Source of the DNA: an uncultured delta proteobacterium
Lineage (GTDB): Bacteria; Desulfobacterota; Desulfobacteria; Desulfobacterales; JAFDCJ01
Direction: 5' to 3'
Length of the DNA: 64,000 nt
Assembly (NCBI GenBank): GCA_963769935.1
Contig: CAVYNY010000013.1
Span: 128,001-192,000 of the forward strand
Shown: positions 3,274 through 52,650 of the stretch, one piece after another
Position numbering within the stretch: the first letter of the stretch is position 1
How the letters are laid out: every line of letters starts with the position of its first letter
Notes under the pieces: generated by a model
What the model was told of the DNA's origin: nothing
The model's database searches: none
The model's input: the letters and a program-made list of their open reading frames with translations, nothing else
Program-made: the position numbers and the translations under genes

Positions 3274-3418
3274 AGAGAACATCCTCTCTTCGATTCTCCA
3301 GGACCCTGAATCCAAGCCTCAATTCATGCCAACAGCGAAGAAACAAGGACCACCCGCCAAGTCGTTAAGATGGGTCAATTGACAACATGCCGGATTTATT
3401 TATTAAAAGAACTCTTAA

Positions 3419-41691: not shown

Positions 41692-44217
41692 ATGATTGCC
41701 GAGCTGCTGAAATCCAATATCGCCATTGTAGGCGGGGGGAGATTTTGCAAAAGATTTCTGCAATTGCTCTTCAGCGAGGATTTTGAGGATCAGCATCCGA
41801 AGGTTTTAGGGGTGGCCGATCGGAACAGCTCCGGGCAGGGGATGGTATACGCCCGGGAGATGGAAATATTTACCACGACCGACTTCAACGATCTTCTCAG
41901 CCTCGCTGACCTGCAGGTTGTGGTGGAGCTGACCGGCGATGTGAAACTCGGCAGCATCATCAAAAAAAACGCGCCGGCCGGAATCAAAATAATTAATCAC
42001 ATCGAGGCGCGGTCGCTATGGAGTTCCCTCCAGGTCGAAAAAGAAAAGCGAAAAGCATTAAAGGAATTACGGCAGAACAGTTTTAAGGCCGGCGAATTAG
42101 ACACTCTATTTGAAAAATTTGCCGACCGCTTGGGCGAAGTTGTTAAAGAGCGCAGTGACCGGTACGTGGAAATCGAAAGGGAACTGGTAGAAAGCGAAAG
42201 GGCCCTGTCCCAGATAATAGGGGGCAGTACGATACCGACATTTGTCATCAACAAAGACCATATCGTAACCCATTGGAACAAAGCCATGGAGCGGCTTACG
42301 GGCGCTCCGGTCGAGGAGATGGTGAACACCAACCGCCAGTCGACGCCTTTTTGGGGTGAAGAACGCCCCACGATGGCCGATGTTATCCTGGATCAAATTG
42401 ATGAAGACGAAATTCAGAAATTGTACGGCGAAAAATGGCGCAAATCGGCATTGATTGAAGAAGCTTATGAAGCCGAAGTGTTTTTCCCCCGGCTGGGCGA
42501 AAACGGAAAATGGTGCTGGTTTACGGCCGCTCCCATAAAAGCACCGGACGGCACCATCGTCGGCGCCATCGAAACCCTCTGGGACAAAACCGAGGACAAA
42601 AAAGCTGAAGAAGAACGGGAGCGCTACAACCGGGAACTGAGCACGATGTGCACCATTTACAGTGCCTTGAATGTTCCCGCCGATCTGGATTCGCGCATCA
42701 ACCAGACCGTGGATGAATTGTTACGGTTTTTATCGGCCGACGCCGTTGGTATCTATTTGCGGGAACAGGACGGCAACTACTATCTGCGCAATTGCCGGGG
42801 GCTATCGGCGGCAGGCTGTGAAAAGGTGAGCGTTCTTGACCAAGACAGCGCGATTCACCGTGTTGCCCAGATGAATGCATACACCATCAATGATTCCTCG
42901 CTCAAAAGGTGTTCGGATGAAGTCTTCCTCCTGCAGGAAGAAGGGATCGCTTCCATTGCCTATATTCCCATCAGCAGCAAAGAAAAGAAAACGTTCGGCG
43001 TCATCCGCATCGGCAGTAAAAAGCCGAAGTATTTCAATCATGAGCTGAAAAGCGTTCTTGAATTGATCGGCAATCGTATCGGGGTGGCCATCGAAAATGC
43101 CATGCTGCAGGATCAGTACATTAAATCGGAAAAAAAATATCGCACACTGTTTAACAGCGATCCCCATCCTATATTCATTCTTGACAGCCGGACATTTGAG
43201 ATTCTGGACATGAATCAACGGGCTCAGGTCAGCTACGGATATACCCGGGAGGAATTGCTGGGCCTGCAGTTTCTTGAGATCGGGGTAGAAGACGATAAAG
43301 AGCTGGCCCAGGCGCTGGCGAATCTTACCGAAGATCAATCGCTTCTATTCACCAAGAAACGGCACTACCGCAAGGGCCGCAAGCCGTTTTACGTCAATAT
43401 CAACATAAGCTATGCAAAATACGGCGAAGGCAATGTTATCATGGTTTCCACCACCGATATCACTGAAGTGGTCGAGAAAGAAACCCAGCTGATACAAGCC
43501 GGCAAAATGACCACGCTGGGCGTGATGGCCGCCGGCATGGCCCATGAAATCAACCAGCCTTTGAACGTCATCCAGGTGTGCGCCGACTTTTTCTTGAAGA
43601 TGCTGAAAAGGGGTGCCAAGATTGACGACGAAGACCTGCGGACCATGGCCAACGACATCGTCGCCAATGTGGAGCGGGCCACCGGTGTTATCAAACACGT
43701 CCGGGATTTTGCCAGACAATCCGAACCTATTCGCAGCAGGGTGAACATCAACGATCCAATCCGGGATGTTTTCAAAGTCCTCGGTCATCAGCTCAAAGTC
43801 CATGATATTGAGGTGCATCTGGATCTGGACCCGGATTTGCCGGATATTATGGCCGAGCACAACCGTCTGGAGCAGGTGTTTATCAACCTGGTTTCCAATG
43901 CCATCGATGCCATGGATCAAAAAAGCAGCGAGCCCGGTTCCGGGGGGGATGCGCTCAAGCGGCTATCCATTAAATCGTTCGGGAAAGACGGCCAGGTCGC
44001 AGTGCATGTCACTGATACGGGTACCGGGATGTCGGAAGAGGTTAGAAACAAGATTTTCGAACCCTTCTATACGACTAAAAAAGTCGGCAAGGGCACCGGG
44101 TTGGGAGTGAGTATCAGCTACGGAATTGTCAAAGACTACGGCGGCAGCATTGATATCGACAGTGAAATCGGCCAGGGCACGTCGTTTAAGCTGATGTTTC
44201 CGGTGGCCGGTGTTTAG
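41692..44217 (+). CDS. Cytoplasmic histidine kinase (Rossmann-like N-terminus, PAS-GAF-PAS-HisKA-HATPase)
   Basis: NIAIVGGG; AHEINQPL H-box, NLVSNAIDA, DTGTG, GTGLG. Confidence 0.92.
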   Translation: MIAELLKSNIAIVGGGRFCKRFLQLLFSEDFEDQHPKVLGVADRNSSGQGMVYAREMEIFTTTDFNDLLSLADLQVVVELTGDVKLGSIIKKNAPAGIKIINHIEARSLWSSLQVEKEKRKALKELRQNSFKAGELDTLFEKFADRLGEVVKERSDRYVEIERELVESERALSQIIGGSTIPTFVINKDHIVTHWNKAMERLTGAPVEEMVNTNRQSTPFWGEERPTMADVILDQIDEDEIQKLYGEKWRKSALIEEAYEAEVFFPRLGENGKWCWFTAAPIKAPDGTIVGAIETLWDKTEDKKAEEERERYNRELSTMCTIYSALNVPADLDSRINQTVDELLRFLSADAVGIYLREQDGNYYLRNCRGLSAAGCEKVSVLDQDSAIHRVAQMNAYTINDSSLKRCSDEVFLLQEEGIASIAYIPISSKEKKTFGVIRIGSKKPKYFNHELKSVLELIGNRIGVAIENAMLQDQYIKSEKKYRTLFNSDPHPIFILDSRTFEILDMNQRAQVSYGYTREELLGLQFLEIGVEDDKELAQALANLTEDQSLLFTKKRHYRKGRKPFYVNINISYAKYGEGNVIMVSTTDITEVVEKETQLIQAGKMTTLGVMAAGMAHEINQPLNVIQVCADFFLKMLKRGAKIDDEDLRTMANDIVANVERATGVIKHVRDFARQSEPIRSRVNINDPIRDVFKVLGHQLKVHDIEVHLDLDPDLPDIMAEHNRLEQVFINLVSNAIDAMDQKSSEPGSGGDALKRLSIKSFGKDGQVAVHVTDTGTGMSEEVRNKIFEPFYTTKKVGKGTGLGVSISYGIVKDYGGSIDIDSEIGQGTSFKLMFPVAGV

Positions 44218-44238
44218 GGTTGATTGGGCTTGACTTTT

Positions 44239-44290
44239 AGGTGTCAGGTGTCAGCACTGCCGCTGCCCGTTCTGACACCTGAACACTGAA
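44239..44290. repeat. Heptamer inverted-repeat element
   Basis: aggtgtcaggtgtcag ... ctgacacctgaacactga. Confidence 0.7.
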
Positions 44291-44336
44291 GCCTTTAACC
44301 TTTAGCCATTAACCTTGAACCAATCATTTTAAAATT

Positions 44337-45857
44337 ATGGACAAACTATTACTCATAGATGATGAGCCCGACATTCTGAGGGTTCTTGGCATATCGCTGA
44401 AAGCAGACGGATATCATGTCATCCCGGCCCTCAATGGCGCTGAGGGCCTGGAGGCATTTTCCCGGGATAGGCCTTCCATTGTTATCACCGACATCAAAAT
44501 GCCGGGTATGGATGGTATCGAAGTTCTGGAAAAAATAAAAGAAATTGATCCCGATACGGAAGTGATTATCATAACCGGCCACGGTGATATAGACAATGCC
44601 ATCGAATCGCTTAAATATGGGGCCTCGGATTTCATCAACAAACCTGTGCGGGACGAAGCGCTGTCAATCGCCCTGGCAAGAGCCAAAGAAAAACTCGATA
44701 TCAAACGCCGGTTAAAGGAATATACGACTGATCTCGAAAAAAAAATCGAGCTTGCCACCAGTGAATTAAGAAGACAGACCAATTTTCAAATCAAACTCAT
44801 TCGAAGCTCAAATGATGGAATTGTCGCTACCGATCAGGAGTTGAAGATTGTTATTTATAATCCCGGCGCGGAGAAAATTTTCGGGTATTTCCAGTCCGAG
44901 GTCATATATAAGATGCAGTTGGAGGCGCTTTACCCGGCTGAAATCACGGGCTTGTTTCACGAGGCCTTGCGGGCGGATACCAGCCTGAAGGAAATTGCCT
45001 GGCGGGAAACCGAGATAACTTGCAAGGACGGCGAACAGATTCCGGTCAGGTTTTCGGGCACGATTTTAACGGAAAATGAACGGGAAATGGGCACGGTTGC
45101 TTTTTTTCAGGATTTGAGAGAAATTAAACGGTTGGAAAAAGAACTGGTCAAATCTGAGCGGCTGGCCGCCGTCGGGCAAACCGTGGCCGGTCTGGCGCAC
45201 GGCATTAAAAATATTTTGCACGGACTCAAGGGCGGCAGCTATCTGGTGGATATCGGAATCCAACGCAATGACACCGAAAAGCTAAAAAAGGGATGGGAAA
45301 CGATAAAAAGAAACATCGGCCGGACCTCTAATCTTGTGATGGATCTGCTGTCGTATTCCAAAGAACGCACGCCGGAATACGAAGTGTGCCGGCCCAATGA
45401 AATCATAAATGATGTTTGCGAACTGCTCAAAGCTAAAGCCGAGGAGAACAACATTGAAATCCTCACTGAATTTGACGACGCCGTCGGTGAAGTGGTTATG
45501 GATGGCAGCATAATTCATGAAGCCTTGCTGAACCTGGCGTCAAATGCCGTGGATGCCTGCCTGTTCGATGAGGACGTCGGCAAAAAATGGCAAGTCAGAC
45601 TGAAAACCGTGATGGAACCGGAAAATATCATCAAATTTGAAGTCACGGACAACGGGGCCGGCATGGACCAGGAGGTATTGCAGAAGCTCTTTACCTCATT
45701 TTTCAGCACCAAAGGGCATAGAGGCACCGGTCTGGGTCTGATGGTCACTCGCAAAATCATCGAAGAACACCAGGGCCGGATAGAAGTGGCATCCCAACTG
45801 GGCCAGGGAACCACTTTTACCGTCCGGTTGCCGTATAAGGTGGCTGATGCGGCCTAG
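44337..45857 (+). CDS. Hybrid kinase: receiver-PAS-HisKA-HATPase
   Basis: LLIDDE, ITDIKMPG; AHGIKNIL, DNGAG, GTGLG. Confidence 0.92.
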   Translation: MDKLLLIDDEPDILRVLGISLKADGYHVIPALNGAEGLEAFSRDRPSIVITDIKMPGMDGIEVLEKIKEIDPDTEVIIITGHGDIDNAIESLKYGASDFINKPVRDEALSIALARAKEKLDIKRRLKEYTTDLEKKIELATSELRRQTNFQIKLIRSSNDGIVATDQELKIVIYNPGAEKIFGYFQSEVIYKMQLEALYPAEITGLFHEALRADTSLKEIAWRETEITCKDGEQIPVRFSGTILTENEREMGTVAFFQDLREIKRLEKELVKSERLAAVGQTVAGLAHGIKNILHGLKGGSYLVDIGIQRNDTEKLKKGWETIKRNIGRTSNLVMDLLSYSKERTPEYEVCRPNEIINDVCELLKAKAEENNIEILTEFDDAVGEVVMDGSIIHEALLNLASNAVDACLFDEDVGKKWQVRLKTVMEPENIIKFEVTDNGAGMDQEVLQKLFTSFFSTKGHRGTGLGLMVTRKIIEEHQGRIEVASQLGQGTTFTVRLPYKVADAA

Positions 45858-45934
45858 TAATGGCTAAGATATAGTTTTGGTTAAAATCAATTTTTAAGAT
45901 ATATTGCTGAGTATTTTCATAAGGAGGATGCATC

Positions 45935-46327
45935 ATGGGTAAAAAAGTACTGGTTGTTGATGATGATCCGGATGTCCGGCTGTTCAGCGTTGCGGTTCTG
46001 GAAGAAAACGGCTACACCCCCCTGGAGGCGACCAACGGTGAAGAAGGCCTTACGATGATCAAAGCAGAAAAACCGGATTTGGTTATTCTGGATATTCTGA
46101 TGCCGAGGCAAAGCGGAATCCGACTATACCGCGAACTGAAGACTGACAAATCGCTGAGGACTGTTAAAGTTATCATTCTATCCGGCATCGCCAAAAAGAC
46201 GTTTCTGCGTTCCCAGAAGGCTCTGACCGAATTCGGCGGCGAGGAGGTTCCGGAACCCGAGATTTATTTGGAAAAACCGGTCGAACCTGAGGTGCTGGCA
46301 GATAATATTAAGAAAATTTTGGCCTGA
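45935..46327 (+). CDS. Single-domain response regulator
   Basis: VLVVDDD, LDILMP, EKP. Confidence 0.92.
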   Translation: MGKKVLVVDDDPDVRLFSVAVLEENGYTPLEATNGEEGLTMIKAEKPDLVILDILMPRQSGIRLYRELKTDKSLRTVKVIILSGIAKKTFLRSQKALTEFGGEEVPEPEIYLEKPVEPEVLADNIKKILA

Positions 46328-46365
46328 TGCCGTAAAAATCAAACAGCAAAACGCAGTGGAGAGCA

Positions 46366-47250
46366 ATGGAAACCATGAAGATTACGCGACTACTTTTCGT
46401 CACCAAGTTCGAGGAACTGGGATACGATGCCGTGCAGTCATTGCTGAGCCTGACAAAAGCCGACTTGAACCACATTGTCTTTTTAAACGTCATCGAAAGG
46501 GAACGCTTCGCCATGAGCCGGGTGGGCTACCGCAAGGATGAGGAAATAAGACTGCGGGAAGCGGCCAATATTCGGTTTATAGACTGGTCCGAAAACCTGT
46601 TTGAGCAGGGCTTGGAGGTCGGCGTCTATATCGTGGTCGGCAGCCTGGTTCCGCAAGTCATCAAAGCCGCGCAAAAAGAGGAAGCCGATCTTATTGTCAT
46701 CGGGCGTTCGCCCAAAGGTGTGCTGGAGCATCTGTACACAGGCTCGGACATCACGGAATTATTGCGCAGGGCGGAAACTCCGGTTCTGGTGTATAAACAT
46801 TTATCGGAGACGGTGATTTCCATCGCGAAACCCTTTGAAAGACCTCTACTGGCAATGGACTGGTCAGCTGCCAGTATGAAAGCGGTAGGGTATCTAAAGG
46901 AGCTTAAAGATGTGATTCAGGAGATAAGTGTCGTTCATGTGGTCAGTGAAAAGGACTTGAAAGCCACATCGGCCATGTCCGTCCAGAAAACGCGCAAACA
47001 GGCAAGGAAGAAGCTTGAGGAGATCAGCGCCATATTCGCAGCCGAGGGCATTGAGGCCAGAGAGCATGTTTACATCGGCGAGCCGGAGGAGGAGCTTGAA
47101 AAGGCGGCCCGGGAGTGCCAGTCGACCATGATTGTGATGGGCTCGTCTGCCAAGGCGGCCTGGGTTGAAAGATGGCTGGGCAGCATACCGCAGACGATAG
47201 CCGAAAAGTCAATGTATCCGAGCCTGTTGATACCGCCGGAGAAAAAGTGA
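46366..47250 (+). CDS. Tandem universal stress protein
   Basis: Two USP domains: ADLIVIGRS..GSD..PVLV; MIVMGS..LGS..PSLLI. Confidence 0.88.
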   Translation: METMKITRLLFVTKFEELGYDAVQSLLSLTKADLNHIVFLNVIERERFAMSRVGYRKDEEIRLREAANIRFIDWSENLFEQGLEVGVYIVVGSLVPQVIKAAQKEEADLIVIGRSPKGVLEHLYTGSDITELLRRAETPVLVYKHLSETVISIAKPFERPLLAMDWSAASMKAVGYLKELKDVIQEISVVHVVSEKDLKATSAMSVQKTRKQARKKLEEISAIFAAEGIEAREHVYIGEPEEELEKAARECQSTMIVMGSSAKAAWVERWLGSIPQTIAEKSMYPSLLIPPEKK

Positions 47251-47334
47251 TAACCGTTCTGCCGGCACCAAAGTACATCGATAACATTGCAATTCAATTT
47301 AACGTATAAAAGGTGACAGTTAATGGAGGATTTA

Positions 47335-47946
47335 ATGGCGGTAATCACCATTTCAAGACAATTCGGGGCCGGTGGTATCACCCTCGGGAAAATGGTTGCG
47401 AAAAGACTAGGCTATTCATTCGTCGACACGGAAATCATCAAAATGGTCGCCGAGATGGCCAACGTTTCTACCGATTTTGTCGAGACGGTGGAAAAGGAGG
47501 CCGGCGGCAAGTTTTCGAAGTTTGTTGCCAAATTGGTTTCAAAGCCCTTGCTGGAGCGAGTGCTGAAAGATGAGCGCGGCTATATCGACGAAGAAATATA
47601 TCTGGATTACCTGGTTTTGACCATTGCTCAAATGGCTGATGAGGGCAACGTTGTCATTCTGGGTCGAGGCAGCCAGTACATCTTGGGCGACCATCCCGAC
47701 GCCTATCACTTCCTGCTGATTGATGAGTTCGCGAACCGGGTGCGGTTCATTCAGGAGCGCTATGCCCTTTCAAAAAGCCGGGCGGAGCAGGTTGTAAAAA
47801 GCGAAGACAAGCGCCGATTAAATCTTTATCGAAAATTGCATAAAACCGACTATGACAGATCCAGTCTGTATCATCTGGTGCTGAATATGCACAGGATCAG
47901 CCTGGATCAGGCGCAGGAAATGATGTGCGGTCTGGTGGCGCCATGA
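47335..47946 (+). CDS. Cytidylate kinase-like family protein
   Basis: VITISRQFGAGG, VILGRGSQ, YHLVLN; RBS GGAGGA. Confidence 0.88.
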   Translation: MAVITISRQFGAGGITLGKMVAKRLGYSFVDTEIIKMVAEMANVSTDFVETVEKEAGGKFSKFVAKLVSKPLLERVLKDERGYIDEEIYLDYLVLTIAQMADEGNVVILGRGSQYILGDHPDAYHFLLIDEFANRVRFIQERYALSKSRAEQVVKSEDKRRLNLYRKLHKTDYDRSSLYHLVLNMHRISLDQAQEMMCGLVAP

Positions 47947-47972: not shown

Positions 47973-48000
47973 TTGACAGATTCAAGGAATGTCTGATAAT
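47973..48000 (+). promoter_or_regulatory. Putative sigma70 promoter of the Fo operon
   Basis: TTGACA-N16-GATAAT, about 60 nt upstream of atpZ. Confidence 0.5.
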
Positions 48001-48059
48001 AAAAAAAGCTTTATTAACTTTGCTGTCACACGTGCACCAACCAATTCCAATTCAGGCGA

Positions 48060-48332
48060 ATGTTTTTTGATTTTAAAAAAAACCGCGCCTGGGCCGAAAA
48101 CCTCTCCATTGTGATGCAGATCGGCCTTACCATGGCCGGTTGTATCGTCTTTTGCTTCTTTGTAGGGCTATACATAGACAAGTGGATCGGCACAAAAGGC
48201 ATTTTTGTGGCGATTTTCACCGTGCTGGGGGTTGTCGGTGGGGCGGTAACGGTATACCGGCAAATTTTAAGTATCACCCAGGACGGGACAGGGAAAAGCA
48301 AGCCGGGAGATAAAGATCATGGAAAAAGTTAG
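48060..48332 (+). CDS. atpZ: AtpZ/AtpI-family small membrane protein
   Basis: Two TM segments with GLYIDKWIGT; first gene of the atp cluster. Confidence 0.8.
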   Translation: MFFDFKKNRAWAENLSIVMQIGLTMAGCIVFCFFVGLYIDKWIGTKGIFVAIFTVLGVVGGAVTVYRQILSITQDGTGKSKPGDKDHGKS

Positions 48333-48708
48333 GGAAACCCAGAAAAAGTATTGCTCACGGGCCATGATGGCGGCAATTCTCATAGGACTTTTTTTTATGC
48401 TCGCCGGATATCTTCCGATTACCAAAGGGCTGATATTGGGAACCCTTTTCAGTGTGATCAATTTTGTCCTCATCGGCGAAACGCTGCCGCTCAGACTTGG
48501 AAAACCAAAACGGAAGACCTTTTTTATTTCTCTGGGCTCGATTCTTTTCAGGTACGCACTATTATCTATTCCTCTGATTTTGGCTGTAAAATTTGAGCAG
48601 TTTAACCTGATTGCCGCTGTTGGCGGTCTTTTTGCGGTTCAGCTCGTCATTCTTGCGGACCACTTGTTCTCCTTGCTGCTTTCCCCCCAGAGAAAGCAAA
48701 TATTCTAA
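48319..48708 (+). CDS. atpI: ATP synthase subunit I
   Basis: Four TM segments, LFSVINF..FRY; directly upstream of atpB. Confidence 0.8.
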   Translation: MEKVRETQKKYCSRAMMAAILIGLFFMLAGYLPITKGLILGTLFSVINFVLIGETLPLRLGKPKRKTFFISLGSILFRYALLSIPLILAVKFEQFNLIAAVGGLFAVQLVILADHLFSLLLSPQRKQIF

Positions 48709-48735
48709 CCCATTTTTAAAGATGATTGAGTCACA

Positions 48736-49410
48736 ATGGAACAATTAGGCAGGATACATCAGCTGATAATTTCGGTCTGGGGGTATCACGTCACCCTTAA
48801 TCTTGAAGTCATCTTGATGACATGGATCGTCATTGTTATATTGCTGGTCTTTGGATTCTTGGCCGGCAGAAAAAAAAGCCGTCTGCCCGGCCCGCTTCAA
48901 AACGTCGGTGAATTGCTCGTTTCCAGTCTGTACGGCCTGACCGAAGATGCTATGGAAAAAAAATTGGCGCAAAAGTATGCCCCGCTTATCTGCGCGCTAT
49001 TCATGTTTCTCGTGTTATCCAACTGGTTGGGAATCCTGCCGCATCTCGAAGAGCCGACAAAAGATCTAAACACACCGCTAAGCCTGGGACTGCTGGGATT
49101 TGCAATCGCCCATTTCGCCGGTATTCGATCCAAAGGATTTAAACCTTATATCAAGGCCTATTTTGAACCCATTTTCTTTATGATGCCGCTGAATTTGATC
49201 GGAGAACTGGCGAAGGTGGTATCCATATCCTTTCGTCTTTTTGGCAACATTATGGGGGGGTCAATCATTATCATGGTAGTTTCCTATTTGACCTACAATT
49301 TGATTCTGCCGCCTGTTCTCAATGCATTTTTCGGGTTATTCGTCGGCACCATTCAGGCGTTTGTATTTACTATGCTCACGGTAGTTTACATTTCGGTTCA
49401 GGTAAAATAA
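48736..49410 (+). CDS. atpB: Fo subunit a
   Basis: PTKDLN, SISFRLFGN (essential Arg), IQAFVF. Confidence 0.95.
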   Translation: MEQLGRIHQLIISVWGYHVTLNLEVILMTWIVIVILLVFGFLAGRKKSRLPGPLQNVGELLVSSLYGLTEDAMEKKLAQKYAPLICALFMFLVLSNWLGILPHLEEPTKDLNTPLSLGLLGFAIAHFAGIRSKGFKPYIKAYFEPIFFMMPLNLIGELAKVVSISFRLFGNIMGGSIIIMVVSYLTYNLILPPVLNAFFGLFVGTIQAFVFTMLTVVYISVQVK

Positions 49411-49414
49411 TCAA

Positions 49415-50389
49415 ATGACAGCTGATATTCAGACGTGGATCAAGGCAGCGGCATTTGCAGGAGGCGGTTTGGCCATGGGATTCGGTGCCATCGGCGCCGC
49501 CATTGGGGAAGGTTATACAGCCGCAGAAGCCAATGAGGCCATCTCCAGAAACCCCCTGATCTCCGGAGATATTTTCAAAACCATGCTGATCGGCCAGGCA
49601 ATTGCCGAATCCGCTTCAATATTCGCCCTGGTCATTGCCATGATACTCTTGTTTACCGATTACGCCCCGACCTCCATTTTAACGGCTTGCGTACTGTTGT
49701 CCGCGGGACTATCTATGGGTCTTGGTGCCATCGGTTCCGGTATTGGTTCCGGGTTTCCGGCTGGGGCTGCCTGCCGCGGCATGTCCCGTCAGCCGGCCAT
49801 GGGCGGACGCCTCACCACCAACATGCTGATCGGATCAGCGGTTTGTCAGACACCGGCAATTTTCGCGCTGGTGACGTCGTTCATTCTGCTGTTCACCGAT
49901 TTTACACAGCGTTCGATTTCCCCGACCTGGGCCGCTATCCTGGGCGCCGGTTTGTCGTCGGGACTATCGGCCATCGGTTCGGGGTTGGGGGGGGGGCTTG
50001 TTGCCGAAGCAAGTTGTGAGGGCGCGGCCCGGCAGCCGGCCGCGGTAACAGCTGTTACCAATGTCATGCTGCTGGGACAGGCCGTTACCCAAACCACCGC
50101 AATATATGGACTTTTGATCAGCTTTATCTTGATATTCAAAAGTTTTCCGGAAACACAGGCTCTCGCTCCGGCCGCAGCACTTCTCGGCGCGGGCGTGTGC
50201 ATGGGCATCGGGGCGATCGGCCCCGGCATCGGAGAAGGGTTTACGGCCAAAAGTGCCGTAAGTTGGATAGCACGCAATTCAAACGCTGCGGCCGATATTA
50301 CCAGAGTCATGCTCGTCGGGCAGGCCGTTGCCGAATCGACCGGTATATATTCATTGGTAATTGCATTTATTTTGATATTCGTTGTGTGA
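49415..50389 (+). CDS. atpE: Fo subunit c, four fused hairpins (324 aa); carboxylate retained only in hairpins 1 and 4
   Basis: Four repeats ending GQAIAESASIF / GSAVCQTPAIF / GQAVTQTTAIY / GQAVAESTGIY. Confidence 0.92.
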   Translation: MTADIQTWIKAAAFAGGGLAMGFGAIGAAIGEGYTAAEANEAISRNPLISGDIFKTMLIGQAIAESASIFALVIAMILLFTDYAPTSILTACVLLSAGLSMGLGAIGSGIGSGFPAGAACRGMSRQPAMGGRLTTNMLIGSAVCQTPAIFALVTSFILLFTDFTQRSISPTWAAILGAGLSSGLSAIGSGLGGGLVAEASCEGAARQPAAVTAVTNVMLLGQAVTQTTAIYGLLISFILIFKSFPETQALAPAAALLGAGVCMGIGAIGPGIGEGFTAKSAVSWIARNSNAAADITRVMLVGQAVAESTGIYSLVIAFILIFVV

Positions 50390-50435
50390 TTTCAAATTCT
50401 TCCAGGGAAAAAATTAAAAATTCAGGAGGTTACAA

Positions 50436-50684
50436 ATGGCTATTGAAGGTGTAGATATTGTAAAAGCGGCAGCGTTTTTGGGCGCAGGAATCTCAATGGG
50501 ACTGGGTGCAATCGGACCCGGCGTCGGGGAGGGCATGGCAGCGGCCAAAGCGTGCGAAGCCATCGGCAAAAATCCGAAGGAAGCCGGTCTTTTAACCCGA
50601 ACCATGCTGGTCGGACAGGCGGTGACCGAGTCCACCGGAATTTATTCGCTGGTAATCGCGCTACTTCTGTTGTTTGTCGTCTAA
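50436..50684 (+). CDS. atpE: Fo subunit c, single hairpin, Na+-type
   Basis: P28, E32, V63, E65, S66, T67, Y70; RBS AGGAGG. Confidence 0.95.
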   Translation: MAIEGVDIVKAAAFLGAGISMGLGAIGPGVGEGMAAAKACEAIGKNPKEAGLLTRTMLVGQAVTESTGIYSLVIALLLLFVV

Positions 50685-50896
50685 TTTATCCGCTCTGAAA
50701 AATGGCATATTCAGGATGTTCAGTTATTTTATGGATTCTGAAGCATGTTGTTTGATTATCGGTCCGGCCGATCAATTAATTTATGCTGTGCCTGTTTGAT
50801 TTTATTTTTTTAAGTTAATTCATTTCAGCGACTTGTGTATCAAGTTAAATGGTTTCGCAGCTTAACCGTGAAACCGGCGCCGATGGAATACGTCTT

Positions 50897-51352
50897 ATGC
50901 AAATCGTCAGCAATATCGCTCTCATTACCATCAATGAAACGTTGATTGTGCAGTTGATTTCCTTTCTGCTGTTTTTATACCTCATCAATCGGGTGATGTT
51001 TCGTCCGTTACGCGAGGCAATGTCCGAGCGCGACAGTTACATCGAAAATCTGCGGCGCGAAATCTCCGATCAGCAAAAAGAGCTTCAAAAACTTTCAGCC
51101 CGGATGAAGGAAAGCGAGCAGGCCGTCGTTCGGGAAGCACACCATTTGAGCAATGTGCACGAAGAAACCGGCAGCCGCGAAGCTGCTCAGCTTATAGCCA
51201 CAACCCGGACCGAACTCCACGCACTTAAGGTAAAAACCGGCCAAGAAGTCGAAAACAGGATTGTAGAGGCTCGTGAACAATTGAGAACGGAGACACATGT
51301 CCTGGCAATGAATATCATGGAAAAGATTCTTGAACGGAGATTGGCTTCATGA
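50897..51352 (+). CDS. atpF: Fo subunit b'
   Basis: TLIVQLISFLLFLYLINRVMFRPL..ERD, then coiled coil. Confidence 0.88.
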   Translation: MQIVSNIALITINETLIVQLISFLLFLYLINRVMFRPLREAMSERDSYIENLRREISDQQKELQKLSARMKESEQAVVREAHHLSNVHEETGSREAAQLIATTRTELHALKVKTGQEVENRIVEAREQLRTETHVLAMNIMEKILERRLAS

Positions 51353-51936
51353 AAATTGTCAAAAATATACGTATCCTCTGCATCTTTCTGTTTGCGGGCA
51401 CCACCGCTTTCCACTTATTCGAAACTGCGGCCCTGGCGGCTGAAAGCGGAAGCAGCTGGCGTTCGAATTTCGATCTGATTATGATGTGGCTGAATTTCGC
51501 GATCCTGGCAATCGTGCTGATCAAATACGCCAAAAATCCGATCAAGGGGTTTTTCCGGGACCAGAAGGAAAGCATTGCCAAAGCCATAAGCGATATTGAA
51601 GCGCAAAAAGAAGCCAATGACATCGAAATCCGTAAGGCCCAGCAATTAATGCAGGAAAGCAGTGCTCGTTTTGAAGAAATAAGGGGAAAAATTATCGCCG
51701 AAGGTGAACGCAAGAAACAAGCCATCATCGAAGGCGCCCAGCGGGAAAGCAGACTGATGATCGAACATGCCGAGTTTTGGATAGAGCGCCACATCCAGCA
51801 GGCCAAAGAAAGGCTCAGATCCGAATTGATAGACGAATCCATTGAGCAGGCCCTGCAGCGGCTGCCGCAGGTGCTTACCCCGGAAGACAACCGGAAATTC
51901 ATAAGCCGCTACCTGACCGAGATCAAGACGCCTTGA
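51349..51936 (+). CDS. atpF: Fo subunit b
   Basis: MWLNFAILAIVLIKYAKNPIKGFF, then coiled coil. Confidence 0.88.
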   Translation: MKIVKNIRILCIFLFAGTTAFHLFETAALAAESGSSWRSNFDLIMMWLNFAILAIVLIKYAKNPIKGFFRDQKESIAKAISDIEAQKEANDIEIRKAQQLMQESSARFEEIRGKIIAEGERKKQAIIEGAQRESRLMIEHAEFWIERHIQQAKERLRSELIDESIEQALQRLPQVLTPEDNRKFISRYLTEIKTP

Positions 51937-51956: not shown

Positions 51957-52650
51957 ATGGCTAAAGAAAAAATTTCAATCAAACAGTTTGTCGGCAACCA
52001 GGTGAAGAAGTGGGAGCGGATGTACTCCCAGGCGGCGAAGACAAGCCGAACCGCGCCTGCCGACCATAACCCTTAATATGGAACCCGGCAGCGGCGGCAG
52101 CATCCTGGCGCAAAAAATAGCGGATCGACTGGATTTCGACCTCTTTAATCGGGAAATAGTTGAAGCGATAGCCAAAAGTTCCGAAATCAGAGAAACCGTT
52201 ATTGAAACCTTGGAAAAAGACCGTCTGTCCGGGATGGAAGATTTCATCGCCTCCCTGGTCAAGGATTATTACATCCATCCCGATCTTTATCTCGAGCATC
52301 TTCTCAAAGTCATCAACACGATTGCCAAGCACGGTCGGGCGGTGATCGTCGGCCGGGGCGCCAATTTTATCCTGCCGGCGCATGAAATATTTTCCGTACG
52401 CGTCATAGCGCCTCTGGAAATCAGGATCCGCAACGTGGCCCTCAATTACAAGGTTGCTGAAGAGGAAGCCAAGCGGCGGATCATCCAGCGGGAATCGCGC
52501 CGCAAAGCTTTTGTAAGACATTCCTTCAATGCCGATATATCCGATCCCCTCCATTACGACATGGTCATCAACACCGGCAAGATGAATATTGACGCCGCCG
52601 TGGAGGCGGTTATCGCGGCCGTTATGGCCTCCCTGGTGGGCAATCCTTAA
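51957..52650 (+). CDS. Cytidylate kinase-like family protein, apparent frameshift near the 5' end
   Basis: PTITLNMEPGSGG, VIVGRGANF, YDMVINT; upstream MAKEKISIKQFV..KKW is in a different frame. Confidence 0.75.

What the first reader, a model, noticed from the sequence alone, without database searches (positions are those of the whole stretch)
47973..51936. Stand-alone Fo-only ATP synthase operon: a possible exchangeable Na+ motor
Seen: atpZ-atpI-a-c1-c2-b'-b has its own promoter-like sequence and is followed directly by a cytidylate-kinase-like gene and a convergent dpp operon. No delta, alpha, gamma, beta or epsilon gene occurs in the window. Known: deltaproteobacteria usually split atp as (Z,I,B,E) and (F',F,H,A,G,D,C), so b'/b travel with F1; N-ATPase operons carry their own F1. 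Inference: this is a complete second membrane sector with its own stator. It could dock onto an F1 encoded elsewhere, letting the cell swap coupling ion or stoichiometry without a second F1.
Basis: partly seen in the sequence, partly recalled or inferred. Interest (0 to 1): 0.85.

Follow-up and report, generated by a model that had tools for sequence, protein, structure and literature searches.

The report
Second sodium motor, one shared head
This sulfate-reducer-type bacterium encodes two different membrane motors for ATP synthase but only one catalytic head; the extra motor carries a sodium-type signature and a fused rotor protein with two of four ion sites blanked, so the cell likely builds both a proton-driven and a sodium-driven enzyme on the same head.

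Summary
Observation confirmed. The window holds atpZ-atpI-a-c1-c2-b'-b with no F1 gene. The genome has one F1 set, one canonical a/c operon with an H+-type c (Leu67) and this second, Na+-type Fo (c2: E32/E65/S66/T67/Y70). c1 is a four-hairpin fusion (E-Q-Q-E). In 301 Desulfobacterales genomes, 177 carry this a; 148 of them have exactly one more a than gamma, against parity in 113 of 124 without it. In 10 distant relatives the same motor sits inside the only ordinary F1 operon. In one (G641) the ordinary F1 locus has lost its own b'/b, leaving this motor's pair. A published Desulfococcus biacutus proteome lists the matching proteins beside one F1. Best reading: two holoenzymes on one F1. Ion, ring size, direction and regulated switching are untested. 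The extra Fo was noted once in print (D. oleovorans, 2014), without a sodium or shared-F1 reading in the passages I saw. This scan found the same system before on other DNA. New variant of a known kind.

The parts
47973..48000 (+). sigma-70-type promoter-like site (TTGACA-16-GATAAT) ahead of atpZ
   Evidence: 11/12 match, best of 9 sites; enriched ahead of atpZ in relatives, 30 of 80 vs 6 of 80 shuffled; function untested
48060..48332 (+). atpZ (ATPase_gene1 family), 90 aa
   Evidence: PF09527, 57 bits; found in 80 of 80 related loci
48319..48708 (+). atpI, 129 aa; likely the assembly factor for this motor's mixed c ring
   Evidence: PF03899, 31 bits; A. woodii's hybrid ring needs its own AtpI (PMC8904574 passage)
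48736..49410 (+). subunit a (a2), 224 aa, with the conserved RLFGN arginine; a lineage separate from canonical and N-type a
   Evidence: PF00119 and TIGR01131; 50 such a proteins form one side of a branch, SH-aLRT 100
49415..50389 (+). c1, 324 aa: four fused c hairpins with E, Q, Q, E at position 65; two predicted complete Na+ sites and two blank ones
   Evidence: four PF00137 domains; motifs; AlphaFold pLDDT 95.8; top fold and sequence match 4BEM_J
50436..50684 (+). c2, 82 aa: single hairpin with the two-carboxylate Na+ signature E32, E65, S66, T67, Y70
   Evidence: same signature in 74 of 74 complete c2; rule from PMC3692424 and PMC2359735 passages
50897..51352 (+). b' (151 aa from ATG 50897), first peripheral-stalk subunit
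   Evidence: PF00430, 56 bits; length
51349..51936 (+). b (195 aa), full length, with the conserved C-terminal helix predicted to bind delta
   Evidence: PF00430; C-terminal Asp in 96% and Tyr/Phe in 91% of 98 Fo2 b; complex model

Best explanation
The operon encodes a complete second membrane sector (a, two c types, b', b and two assembly genes) in a genome with a single F1, and this sector likely assembles with that F1 into a second, predicted Na+-coupled ATP synthase beside the predicted H+-coupled one. Shown: gene content, copy numbers, conservation, ion-site residues. Inferred step 1: c2 copies and c1 form one mixed ring, as in A. woodii, with two neighbouring blank sites; this would lower Na+ per turn (an assumed 11-hairpin ring with one c1 gives 9 Na+, 3.0 per ATP). 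Inferred step 2: the b'/b pair binds the ordinary delta and the ring binds the ordinary gamma/epsilon, so a newly made F1 is captured by either Fo and the two operons' expression sets the mix. This is choice at assembly, not necessarily exchange on a working enzyme. Inferred step 3: the Na+ enzyme mainly makes ATP from the Na+ gradient of the Rnf complex (about 55% within this explanation); ATP-driven Na+ export is the alternative direction.
For: One F1, two a, four b-family genes in this genome. Order survey: a minus gamma = 1 in 148 of 177 genomes with this a, and = 0 in 113 of 124 without; among 24 genomes of at most 10 contigs, 17 of 19 and 5 of 5. No F1 gene in any of 80 related loci, 61 of which run at least 1 kb past b. 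Outside the order, 34 of 35 carriers have exactly one high-scoring gamma and none has two. In 10 of the 35 the same a-c1-c2 block runs on into b'-b-delta and, where the contig allows, the F1 genes; in 4 of these checked, only that b'/b pair passes the Pfam cut-off while a canonical a/c stands elsewhere. In G641 bactofilin is followed directly by delta inside a contig and the only b'/b pair besides an N-type b is this motor's. c2 has the full Na+ set; the canonical c has Leu67 in 287 of 301 genomes, the H+-type mark in PMC2359735. All 111 multi-hairpin c1 keep E65 in hairpin 1 and S-T-x-x-Y in the last hairpin, the half-sites a neighbouring c2 would complete. b-b'-delta model: score 0.67, best control 0.00; mark reached by 116 of 157 solved complexes and 2 of 215 mismatched pairs; runs agree in 100% of contacts, partner pLDDT at least 84; a textbook pair, so it may pass by likeness. 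D. biacutus proteome tables list a 323-aa c, a 151-aa b and a 198-aa b from one locus besides the canonical b pair and one F1 set. Rnf/Nqr-type genes in 176 of 177 carriers vs 109 of 124 others.
Against: No binding, transport or ring-size experiment exists for this motor. The canonical c keeps Q32, S66 and Y70, so its H+ label rests on one residue and a 2008 sequence rule; PMC13343851 could not resolve the ion for related c subunits. In 11 of 55 internal c1 junctions an E65 hairpin lacks T67/Y70 on its neighbour, and 1 junction has the reverse. 29 of 177 carriers depart from a minus gamma = 1: 13 at parity and 16 with a larger excess, most not inspected. The commonest c1 has three blank sites in a row (46 of 111) and two have five; it is unclear how an ion gradient drives a rotor across such a gap, and fewer ions per ATP need a higher driving force (173-194 mV for 9 or 8 Na+ at an assumed 50 kJ/mol). 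The D. biacutus c1 hit is one peptide, score 150, matched to this operon by length and adjacency only, in cells grown in freshwater medium. G641 is a single 95%-complete assembly. Kin are not independent in any count.
Confidence: 0.78

Rival explanations
1. Same partnership with the single F1, but the second enzyme is mainly an ATP-driven Na+ pump (Na+ export, or building a Na+ gradient for sulfate symport or reverse Rnf). Blank sites lower Na+ per ATP so that it pumps against a steeper gradient.
For: Runs of two to five blank sites are easier to cross when F1 drives the rotor (inference). The order's DASS sulfate transporters are Na+-driven (PMC11887813 passage). The number of live sites changes often: about 12 changes of the last hairpin on the a tree, at least 5 forced.
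Against: A. woodii and C. aceticum enzymes with a blanked c1 are described as the synthases of a Na+ respiratory chain (PMC7911925 passages). In G641 this is the only Fo found apart from an N-type set. This rival shares most of the anatomy with the best explanation and is a variant of its last step.
Confidence: 0.3
2. The second Fo works without F1, as a gated Na+ channel or a way to vent the Na+ gradient.
For: It is transcribed from its own position, far from F1, in Desulfobacterales. Its b'/b are only 30-62% identical among orthologues.
Against: b is full length and keeps the C-terminal helix of the F1-operon b. c loops keep R-Q-P even in blank hairpins (119 of 197). The same motor is encoded with F1 in 10 relatives and supplies the only b'/b pair in G641. 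An open Fo would short-circuit the membrane (established knowledge).
Confidence: 0.05
3. c1 is not a working part of the rotor. It serves as a seed or scaffold for ring assembly, or is a minor species, and the working ring is c2 alone, an ordinary Na+ c ring.
For: Up to five blank sites in a row look hard to rotate through. c1 is less conserved than c2 (about 48-81% vs 79-99%).
Against: The end hairpins of all 111 c1 keep exactly the half-sites needed next to c2, and T67/Y70 go with a live neighbour at 44 of 55 live junctions and 1 of 276 blank ones. A seed that stays in the ring is still a rotor part. A. woodii c1 follows the same rule and sits in its ring at 9:1.
Confidence: 0.12
4. A dedicated second F1 exists but is missing from the assembly, or the operon is a decaying relic or bin contamination.
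For: The genome is 96.7% complete with 5.4% contamination in 41 contigs. One of 80 loci (L059) has c1 cut off by unrelated sequence.
Against: The one-extra-a pattern holds in all 6 single-contig carriers. The reading frames are intact in the window; c2 differs from its near relative L070 at 36 synonymous and 5 non-synonymous codons. The operon lies on a 650-kb contig, with the same neighbours as in L070 and L020.
Confidence: 0.02

Closest known systems
Acetobacterium woodii / Clostridium aceticum Na+ F1Fo with F/V-hybrid rotor (c1 plus c2/3; PDB 4BEM)
   Same: Two c genes, one fused with a Glu-to-Gln blank; 4BEM_J is the top sequence and fold match of c1; its first hairpin keeps Glu with Phe70 and its last has Gln with Thr-Thr-x-x-Tyr, the same rule as here; own atpI.
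   Different: There c1 has two hairpins and one blank site and lies in a complete operon with F1 (PMC7911925). Here c1 has four hairpins (two to six in relatives) with runs of blank sites, position 32 is Glu, the stalk is b'+b, and the motor coexists with a second, H+-type Fo on one F1.
Fusobacterium nucleatum two-carboxylate Na+ c11 ring (PDB 3ZK1)
   Same: c2 carries E32, E65, S66, T67, Y70.
   Different: That ring is made of one c type; here c2 is accompanied by the fused c1 and no F1 genes are linked.
Duplicated ectopic Fo of Desulfococcus oleovorans (Koumandou and Kossida 2014, PMC4154653)
   Same: Very likely the same operon: 'double 0A-0C-0B'-0B', no extra F1; a and c group with Thermotogae, b within deltaproteobacteria.
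   Different: Reported for one species as a duplication or possible transfer. The passages I saw give no ion assignment, no fused c and no shared-F1 idea. Here it is in 177 of 301 genomes of the order, and its b'/b are not copies of the order's own b'/b (AU p = 1e-6).
N-ATPase (atpDCQRBEFAG)
   Same: An accessory rotary system next to the ordinary synthase, described as Na+-translocating (PMC3543383 passage).
   Different: N-ATPases bring their own F1, have atpR, no delta and a long b extension. This operon has no F1, scores far below the N-type model cut-offs, and its a falls outside the N-type clade.
Multiple atpE copies in Desulfatiglandales (PMC13343851)
   Same: Two to four atpE copies noted in relatives, with the remark that they may modulate ion binding.
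   Different: The authors did not resolve the ion; the passage does not describe a second a/b set or fused hairpins.

Membership tests
F-type ATP synthase Fo sector | subunit a with the conserved arginine, c with the Glu65 carboxylate, full-length b-type stalk | tested here: met
   TIGR01131 and TIGR01260 above cut-off, two PF00430 genes; RLFGN in a
Na+-coupled F-type rotor (F. nucleatum / I. tartaricus type) | Gln/Glu32, Glu65, Ser66, polar 67, Tyr70 in c | tested here: met
   c2 has E32-E65-S66-T67-Y70, the same in 74 of 74 c2; rule
Na+-coupled F-type rotor (F. nucleatum / I. tartaricus type) | Na+-dependent activity or Na+ transport | not testable with these tools
   needs an enzyme assay
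A. woodii-type F/V-hybrid rotor | a fused c1 with a Glu-to-Gln blank encoded next to a normal c2 | tested here: met
A. woodii-type F/V-hybrid rotor | c1 of two hairpins with one site | tested here: not met
   four hairpins here; 2 of 111 relatives have two hairpins
A. woodii-type F/V-hybrid rotor | encoded in one operon with its own F1 | tested here: not met
   no F1 gene in the window or in 80 related loci; met in 10 of 35 carriers outside the order
A. woodii-type F/V-hybrid rotor | c1 built into the ring (9:1) | not testable with these tools
   only indirect: end half-sites conserved in 111 of 111
N-ATPase | own F1 genes in the operon (beta-epsilon first, alpha-gamma last) | tested here: not met
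N-ATPase | N-type a and long b | tested here: not met
   TIGR03306 130 bits vs cut-off 302; TIGR03321 34 and 16 bits vs 225; a outside the N-type clade
Canonical deltaproteobacterial split atp locus (Z-I-a-c plus b'-b-delta-alpha-gamma-beta-epsilon) | a/c of the canonical lineage, c with E-S-L-x-I-Y, no b in the a/c operon | tested here: not met
   the canonical set lies elsewhere in this genome; this a is a separate lineage

The most novel reading that the evidence does not exclude
A major group of sulfate reducers runs one F1 head on two alternative motors that differ in both ion (H+ vs Na+) and gearing, and tunes the mix by expression. The Na+ motor's gear ratio is set by a fused rotor segment of two to six hairpins that leaves up to five ion sites in a row empty, more than in any solved F-type ring my PDB searches returned.
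Probability: 0.5. Interest if true: 0.87.

Novelty: new variant of a known kind. Interest (0 to 1): 0.72.

Why it matters
Coupling ion and ion-per-ATP ratio are normally treated as fixed for a given ATP synthase. A single F1 on two motors would make both adjustable, and would give Rnf-using sulfate reducers a direct Na+ route to ATP. Energy budgets that use only the canonical atpB/atpE would miss it in about 59% of the Desulfobacterales genomes sampled (177 of 301). Rotors with two to five neighbouring blank sites test how torque is carried across gaps in a c ring. Cultured carriers exist: the Desulfonema magnum locus L038 holds the operon, and D. biacutus appears to make the proteins.

Tried and rejected
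Second F1 in this genome: the extra alpha/beta-family hits are FliI, a V/A-type pair and a weak hit read as Rho. Second gamma in three carriers at parity (G066, G174, G238): contig-end fragments or below cut-off; the extra gammas of G128 and G277 score like N-type. Recent duplication of the host's b'/b: rejected; so the side-by-side pairs in L096 are not a recent tandem copy. Whether the F1 in the 10 full operons is the host's own or came with the motor is not settled: their beta lies outside the other betas, which distance alone could explain; bactofilin precedes the operon in L117 and L118, as at the canonical locus. A Thermotogae origin was not tested; no such sequences were in my trees. 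A first regex count of hairpins dropped 36 of 193 proteins and gave a perfect covariation; it was replaced by HMM counts that show the exceptions. The first b'/b tree did not finish. RNA contigs cover neighbouring genes too, so they rank nothing and DNA carry-over is not excluded; their common start at 48098 lies inside atpZ and is not a transcription start. Docking on the genome's V1 was considered and dropped because the stalk is b-type (established knowledge; not tested). The D. multivorans paper's main text has no 'ATP synthase' passage and its supplement lists only a canonical set; the one supplement held for PMC11887813 had no hit. Not held, so not read: Brandt and Mueller 2015, Matthies et al. 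2014, the Desulfonema proteogenomics paper.
Full report
What is in the window. The + strand holds atpZ (48060-48332), atpI (48319-48708), a (48736-49410), c1 (49415-50389), c2 (50436-50684), b' (50897-51352) and b (51349-51936), between two cytidylate-kinase-like genes. c1 is one 324-aa protein with four c domains; AlphaFold folds it as four helical hairpins (pLDDT 95.8, 62-row alignment), and its best solved match by sequence and by fold is A. woodii c1, 4BEM_J. A promoter-like site at 47973-48000 scores 11 of 12; similar sites lie ahead of atpZ in 30 of 80 relatives against 6 of 80 shuffles.

The genome. It is 96.7% complete, 5.4% contaminated, in 41 contigs. It has one F1 operon, b'-b-delta-alpha-gamma-beta-epsilon (C11:563639-570012), one canonical Z-I-a-c operon (C32:231117-233053), a V/A-type operon (C35) and FliI. 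Counts: gamma 1, delta 1, epsilon 1, a 2, b-family 4. One Rnf cluster was found. So there are two Fo sets and one F1.

Relatives in the order. The best 80 of 512 loci returned for this a were all read; their titles, where they name an order, family or genus, point to Desulfobacterales. All 80 have Z-I-a and none has an F1 gene; 70 have a complete b, 61 with at least 1 kb beyond it; 9 end at a contig edge and L059 has c1 cut off by other sequence. In a sample of 301 genomes at least 92% complete I counted a matches and gamma matches; my transcription reproduces the tools' totals, 557 and 373. 177 genomes carry this a type (E at most 1e-80). Of these, 148 have one more a than gamma, 13 are at parity and 16 have a larger excess (7 of the 16 have no gamma match). 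Of 124 without it, 113 are at parity. Among genomes of at most 10 contigs the figures are 17 of 19 and 5 of 5. Of the 13 at parity, 4 lack the canonical a and its c motif, 3 have a fragment or sub-threshold second gamma, 5 have weak best scores that suggest a split gene (not inspected) and 1 is 15% contaminated.

Relatives outside the order. 40 of 351 phylum genomes matched at E at most 1e-40, 35 of them outside the order; all 35 loci were fetched. 23 are Fo-only like the window, 2 end inside c1, and 10 continue into b'-b-delta and, where the contig allows, alpha-gamma-beta-epsilon. 34 of the 35 have exactly one high-scoring gamma, none has two, and 1 has none. All 35 have a further a; in the 20 I fetched it is canonical, its c reads Q or M at 32 and E-S-L-x-I-Y, and no b lies nearby. 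In four full-operon genomes checked, one of them a single contig, only two b-family genes pass the cut-off. These are mirror images: the Na+-type motor sits with the only ordinary F1 and the canonical a/c stand alone. G641 is a third arrangement: rodA and bactofilin are followed directly by delta with no b'/b, this motor's operon follows epsilon, its b'/b fall among the Fo2 pairs, and no canonical a or c was found (95% complete). There the ordinary F1 has no other b'/b pair to use, apart from an N-type b. This is the strongest genomic sign that the motor works with the ordinary head.

History. The 50 a proteins of this type form one side of a branch (SH-aLRT 100), apart from 21 canonical and 4 N-type a; the tool warns of long branches at the root. 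In b'+b trees the Fo2 pairs are one side of a branch (88 in 96 rows; 93/92 in a 48-row subset), and holding them with the order's canonical pairs is rejected (p-AU 1e-6). Only 25 of the order's Fo2 pairs went into the larger tree. The second stalk is therefore old and not a recent copy.

Ion sites. In solved Na+ rings, residues 32 and 65 come from one subunit and 63, 66 and 70 from its neighbour; a polar residue at 67 marks predicted Na+ enzymes and Leu, Ile or Val marks H+ ones (PMC3692424 and PMC2359735, passages). c2 has E32-E65-S66-T67-Y70 in 74 of 74 complete copies. The canonical c motif with Leu67 occurs in 287 of 301 genomes, with 0 control hits. Among 111 multi-hairpin c (78 from the order's loci including the window, 33 from outside), patterns at position 65 are EQQQ 46, EQQE 31, EQE 8, EQQQE 7, EQQ 6, EQQQQ 5, EQEE 4, EQQQQQ 2, EE 1, EQ 1. 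Hairpin 1 has E65 in 111 but Y70 in 1; the last hairpin has S-T-x-x-Y in 111. At internal junctions T67/Y70 accompany a following E65 in 44 cases, both are absent in 275, and 11 plus 1 break the rule. This is what is expected if c1 sits between c2 copies in a ring. In the window, hairpins 1 and 4 are predicted live and 2 and 3 blank. A protein search found at least 2458 relatives, including six-hairpin forms.

F1 contacts. b keeps the C-terminal helix of the F1-operon b (Asp in 96% of 98 vs 100% of 40; Tyr/Phe in 91% vs 99%), and blank hairpins keep the R-Q-P loop in 119 of 197. A model of the soluble b and b' with this genome's delta scored 0.67 against a best control of 0.00; the mark was reached by 116 of 157 solved complexes and 2 of 215 mismatched pairs; the runs agree in 100% of contacts and partner pLDDT is at least 84. 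The contacts fall on that C-terminal helix. b-delta is a textbook pair, so the pass may reflect likeness to solved structures.

Expression. Contigs from 4 sediment metatranscriptomes of one study, about 98-99% identical, cover this operon and the canonical Fo operon; they show presence only. In the D. biacutus proteome supplements (PMC4103992; search passages of both PDFs, columns inferred) DebiaDRAFT_02757 (b, 151 aa) appears in both tables, 02756 (b, 198 aa) in the first and 02759 (c, 323 aa, one peptide) in the second, besides 03349/03350 and one F1 set, 03344-03348. I match these to this operon by size and adjacency, not by sequence. Rnf/Nqr-type genes occur in 176 of 177 carriers and 109 of 124 others; 10 of the 16 genomes lacking them come from two families.

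How it most likely works. F1 assembles apart from Fo (PMC8904574 passage), so a free F1 can be captured by either membrane sector. I infer two holoenzymes, H+-coupled and Na+-coupled, with the mix set by the two Fo operons. With an assumed 11-hairpin ring and one c1 the Na+ enzyme would move 9 Na+ per turn, 3.0 per ATP; ring size is unknown, and 10 to 14 hairpins give 2.7 to 4.0. ATP synthesis from the Rnf gradient is my first choice and Na+ pumping the second, because long blank runs are easier to cross under F1 drive. Exchange on an assembled enzyme is not supported by anything here.

What is in print. Ten full-text searches turned up no description of two ion-distinct Fo on one F1 or of a four-hairpin F-type c in these bacteria; I saw listings and abstract openings for most hits. 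Passages read: PMC4154653 reports a fully duplicated ectopic Fo in D. oleovorans; PMC13343851 notes two to four atpE copies in Desulfatiglandales without resolving the ion; also PMC3543383, PMC11887813, PMC5109826, PMC7911925 and PMC7594442. The review on hybrid rotors (Brandt and Mueller 2015) and two other papers were not held and may describe more; unseen data tables of PMC11887813 may bear on expression. This scan's earlier notes reached the same reading on other genomes; they are not independent evidence.

Verdict. The feature is real, conserved and likely functional. It is a new variant of the Na+ hybrid-rotor F1Fo: noted once as a duplication, but not, in what I could read, as a second motor on a shared head. 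Interest 0.72.

Noticed in passing
window 51957-52650: The downstream cytidylate-kinase-like gene probably starts near 51957. All four RNA runs show one letter fewer at 52036-52038 than the window, which points to an assembly error or a strain frameshift.
   Followed up: partly
window 41692-47946: Two sensor kinases, a response regulator, a universal stress protein and a cytidylate-kinase-like gene lie upstream. Parts of this cluster sit beside the operon in many relatives, in either orientation; a possible regulatory link was not tested.
   Followed up: partly
G000 C35:10858-19778: The genome also has a complete V/A-type ATPase operon with a single-hairpin K subunit, a third rotary system.
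   Followed up: no
G000 C11:560030-561468: The rny-like gene near the F1 operon is split over two frames, another likely assembly error.
   Followed up: no
L119:3708-4462 (oriented): A variant with the single c first and then a two-hairpin c in which both hairpins keep the full Na+ set.
   Followed up: no
L121, L123 and P0008-P0072: Six-hairpin c1 of 481-490 aa, mostly with one Glu and five blank hairpins in a row.
   Followed up: partly
L096:2345-13398: The Na+-type Fo operon lies directly ahead of bactofilin and the canonical b'-b-delta-F1 operon, so both b'/b pairs are within 3.2 kb.
   Followed up: yes
L059:10679-11311: c1 breaks off in its third hairpin into unrelated transporter-like sequence; misassembly or a disrupted operon.
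   Followed up: partly
L200 (G527): A divergent, N-type-scoring gamma with no a or c found in the 11 kb fetched.
   Followed up: no
L166, L172, L174: Canonical c subunits with Met in place of Gln at position 32, one Na+ ligand fewer than in the other canonical c.
   Followed up: no
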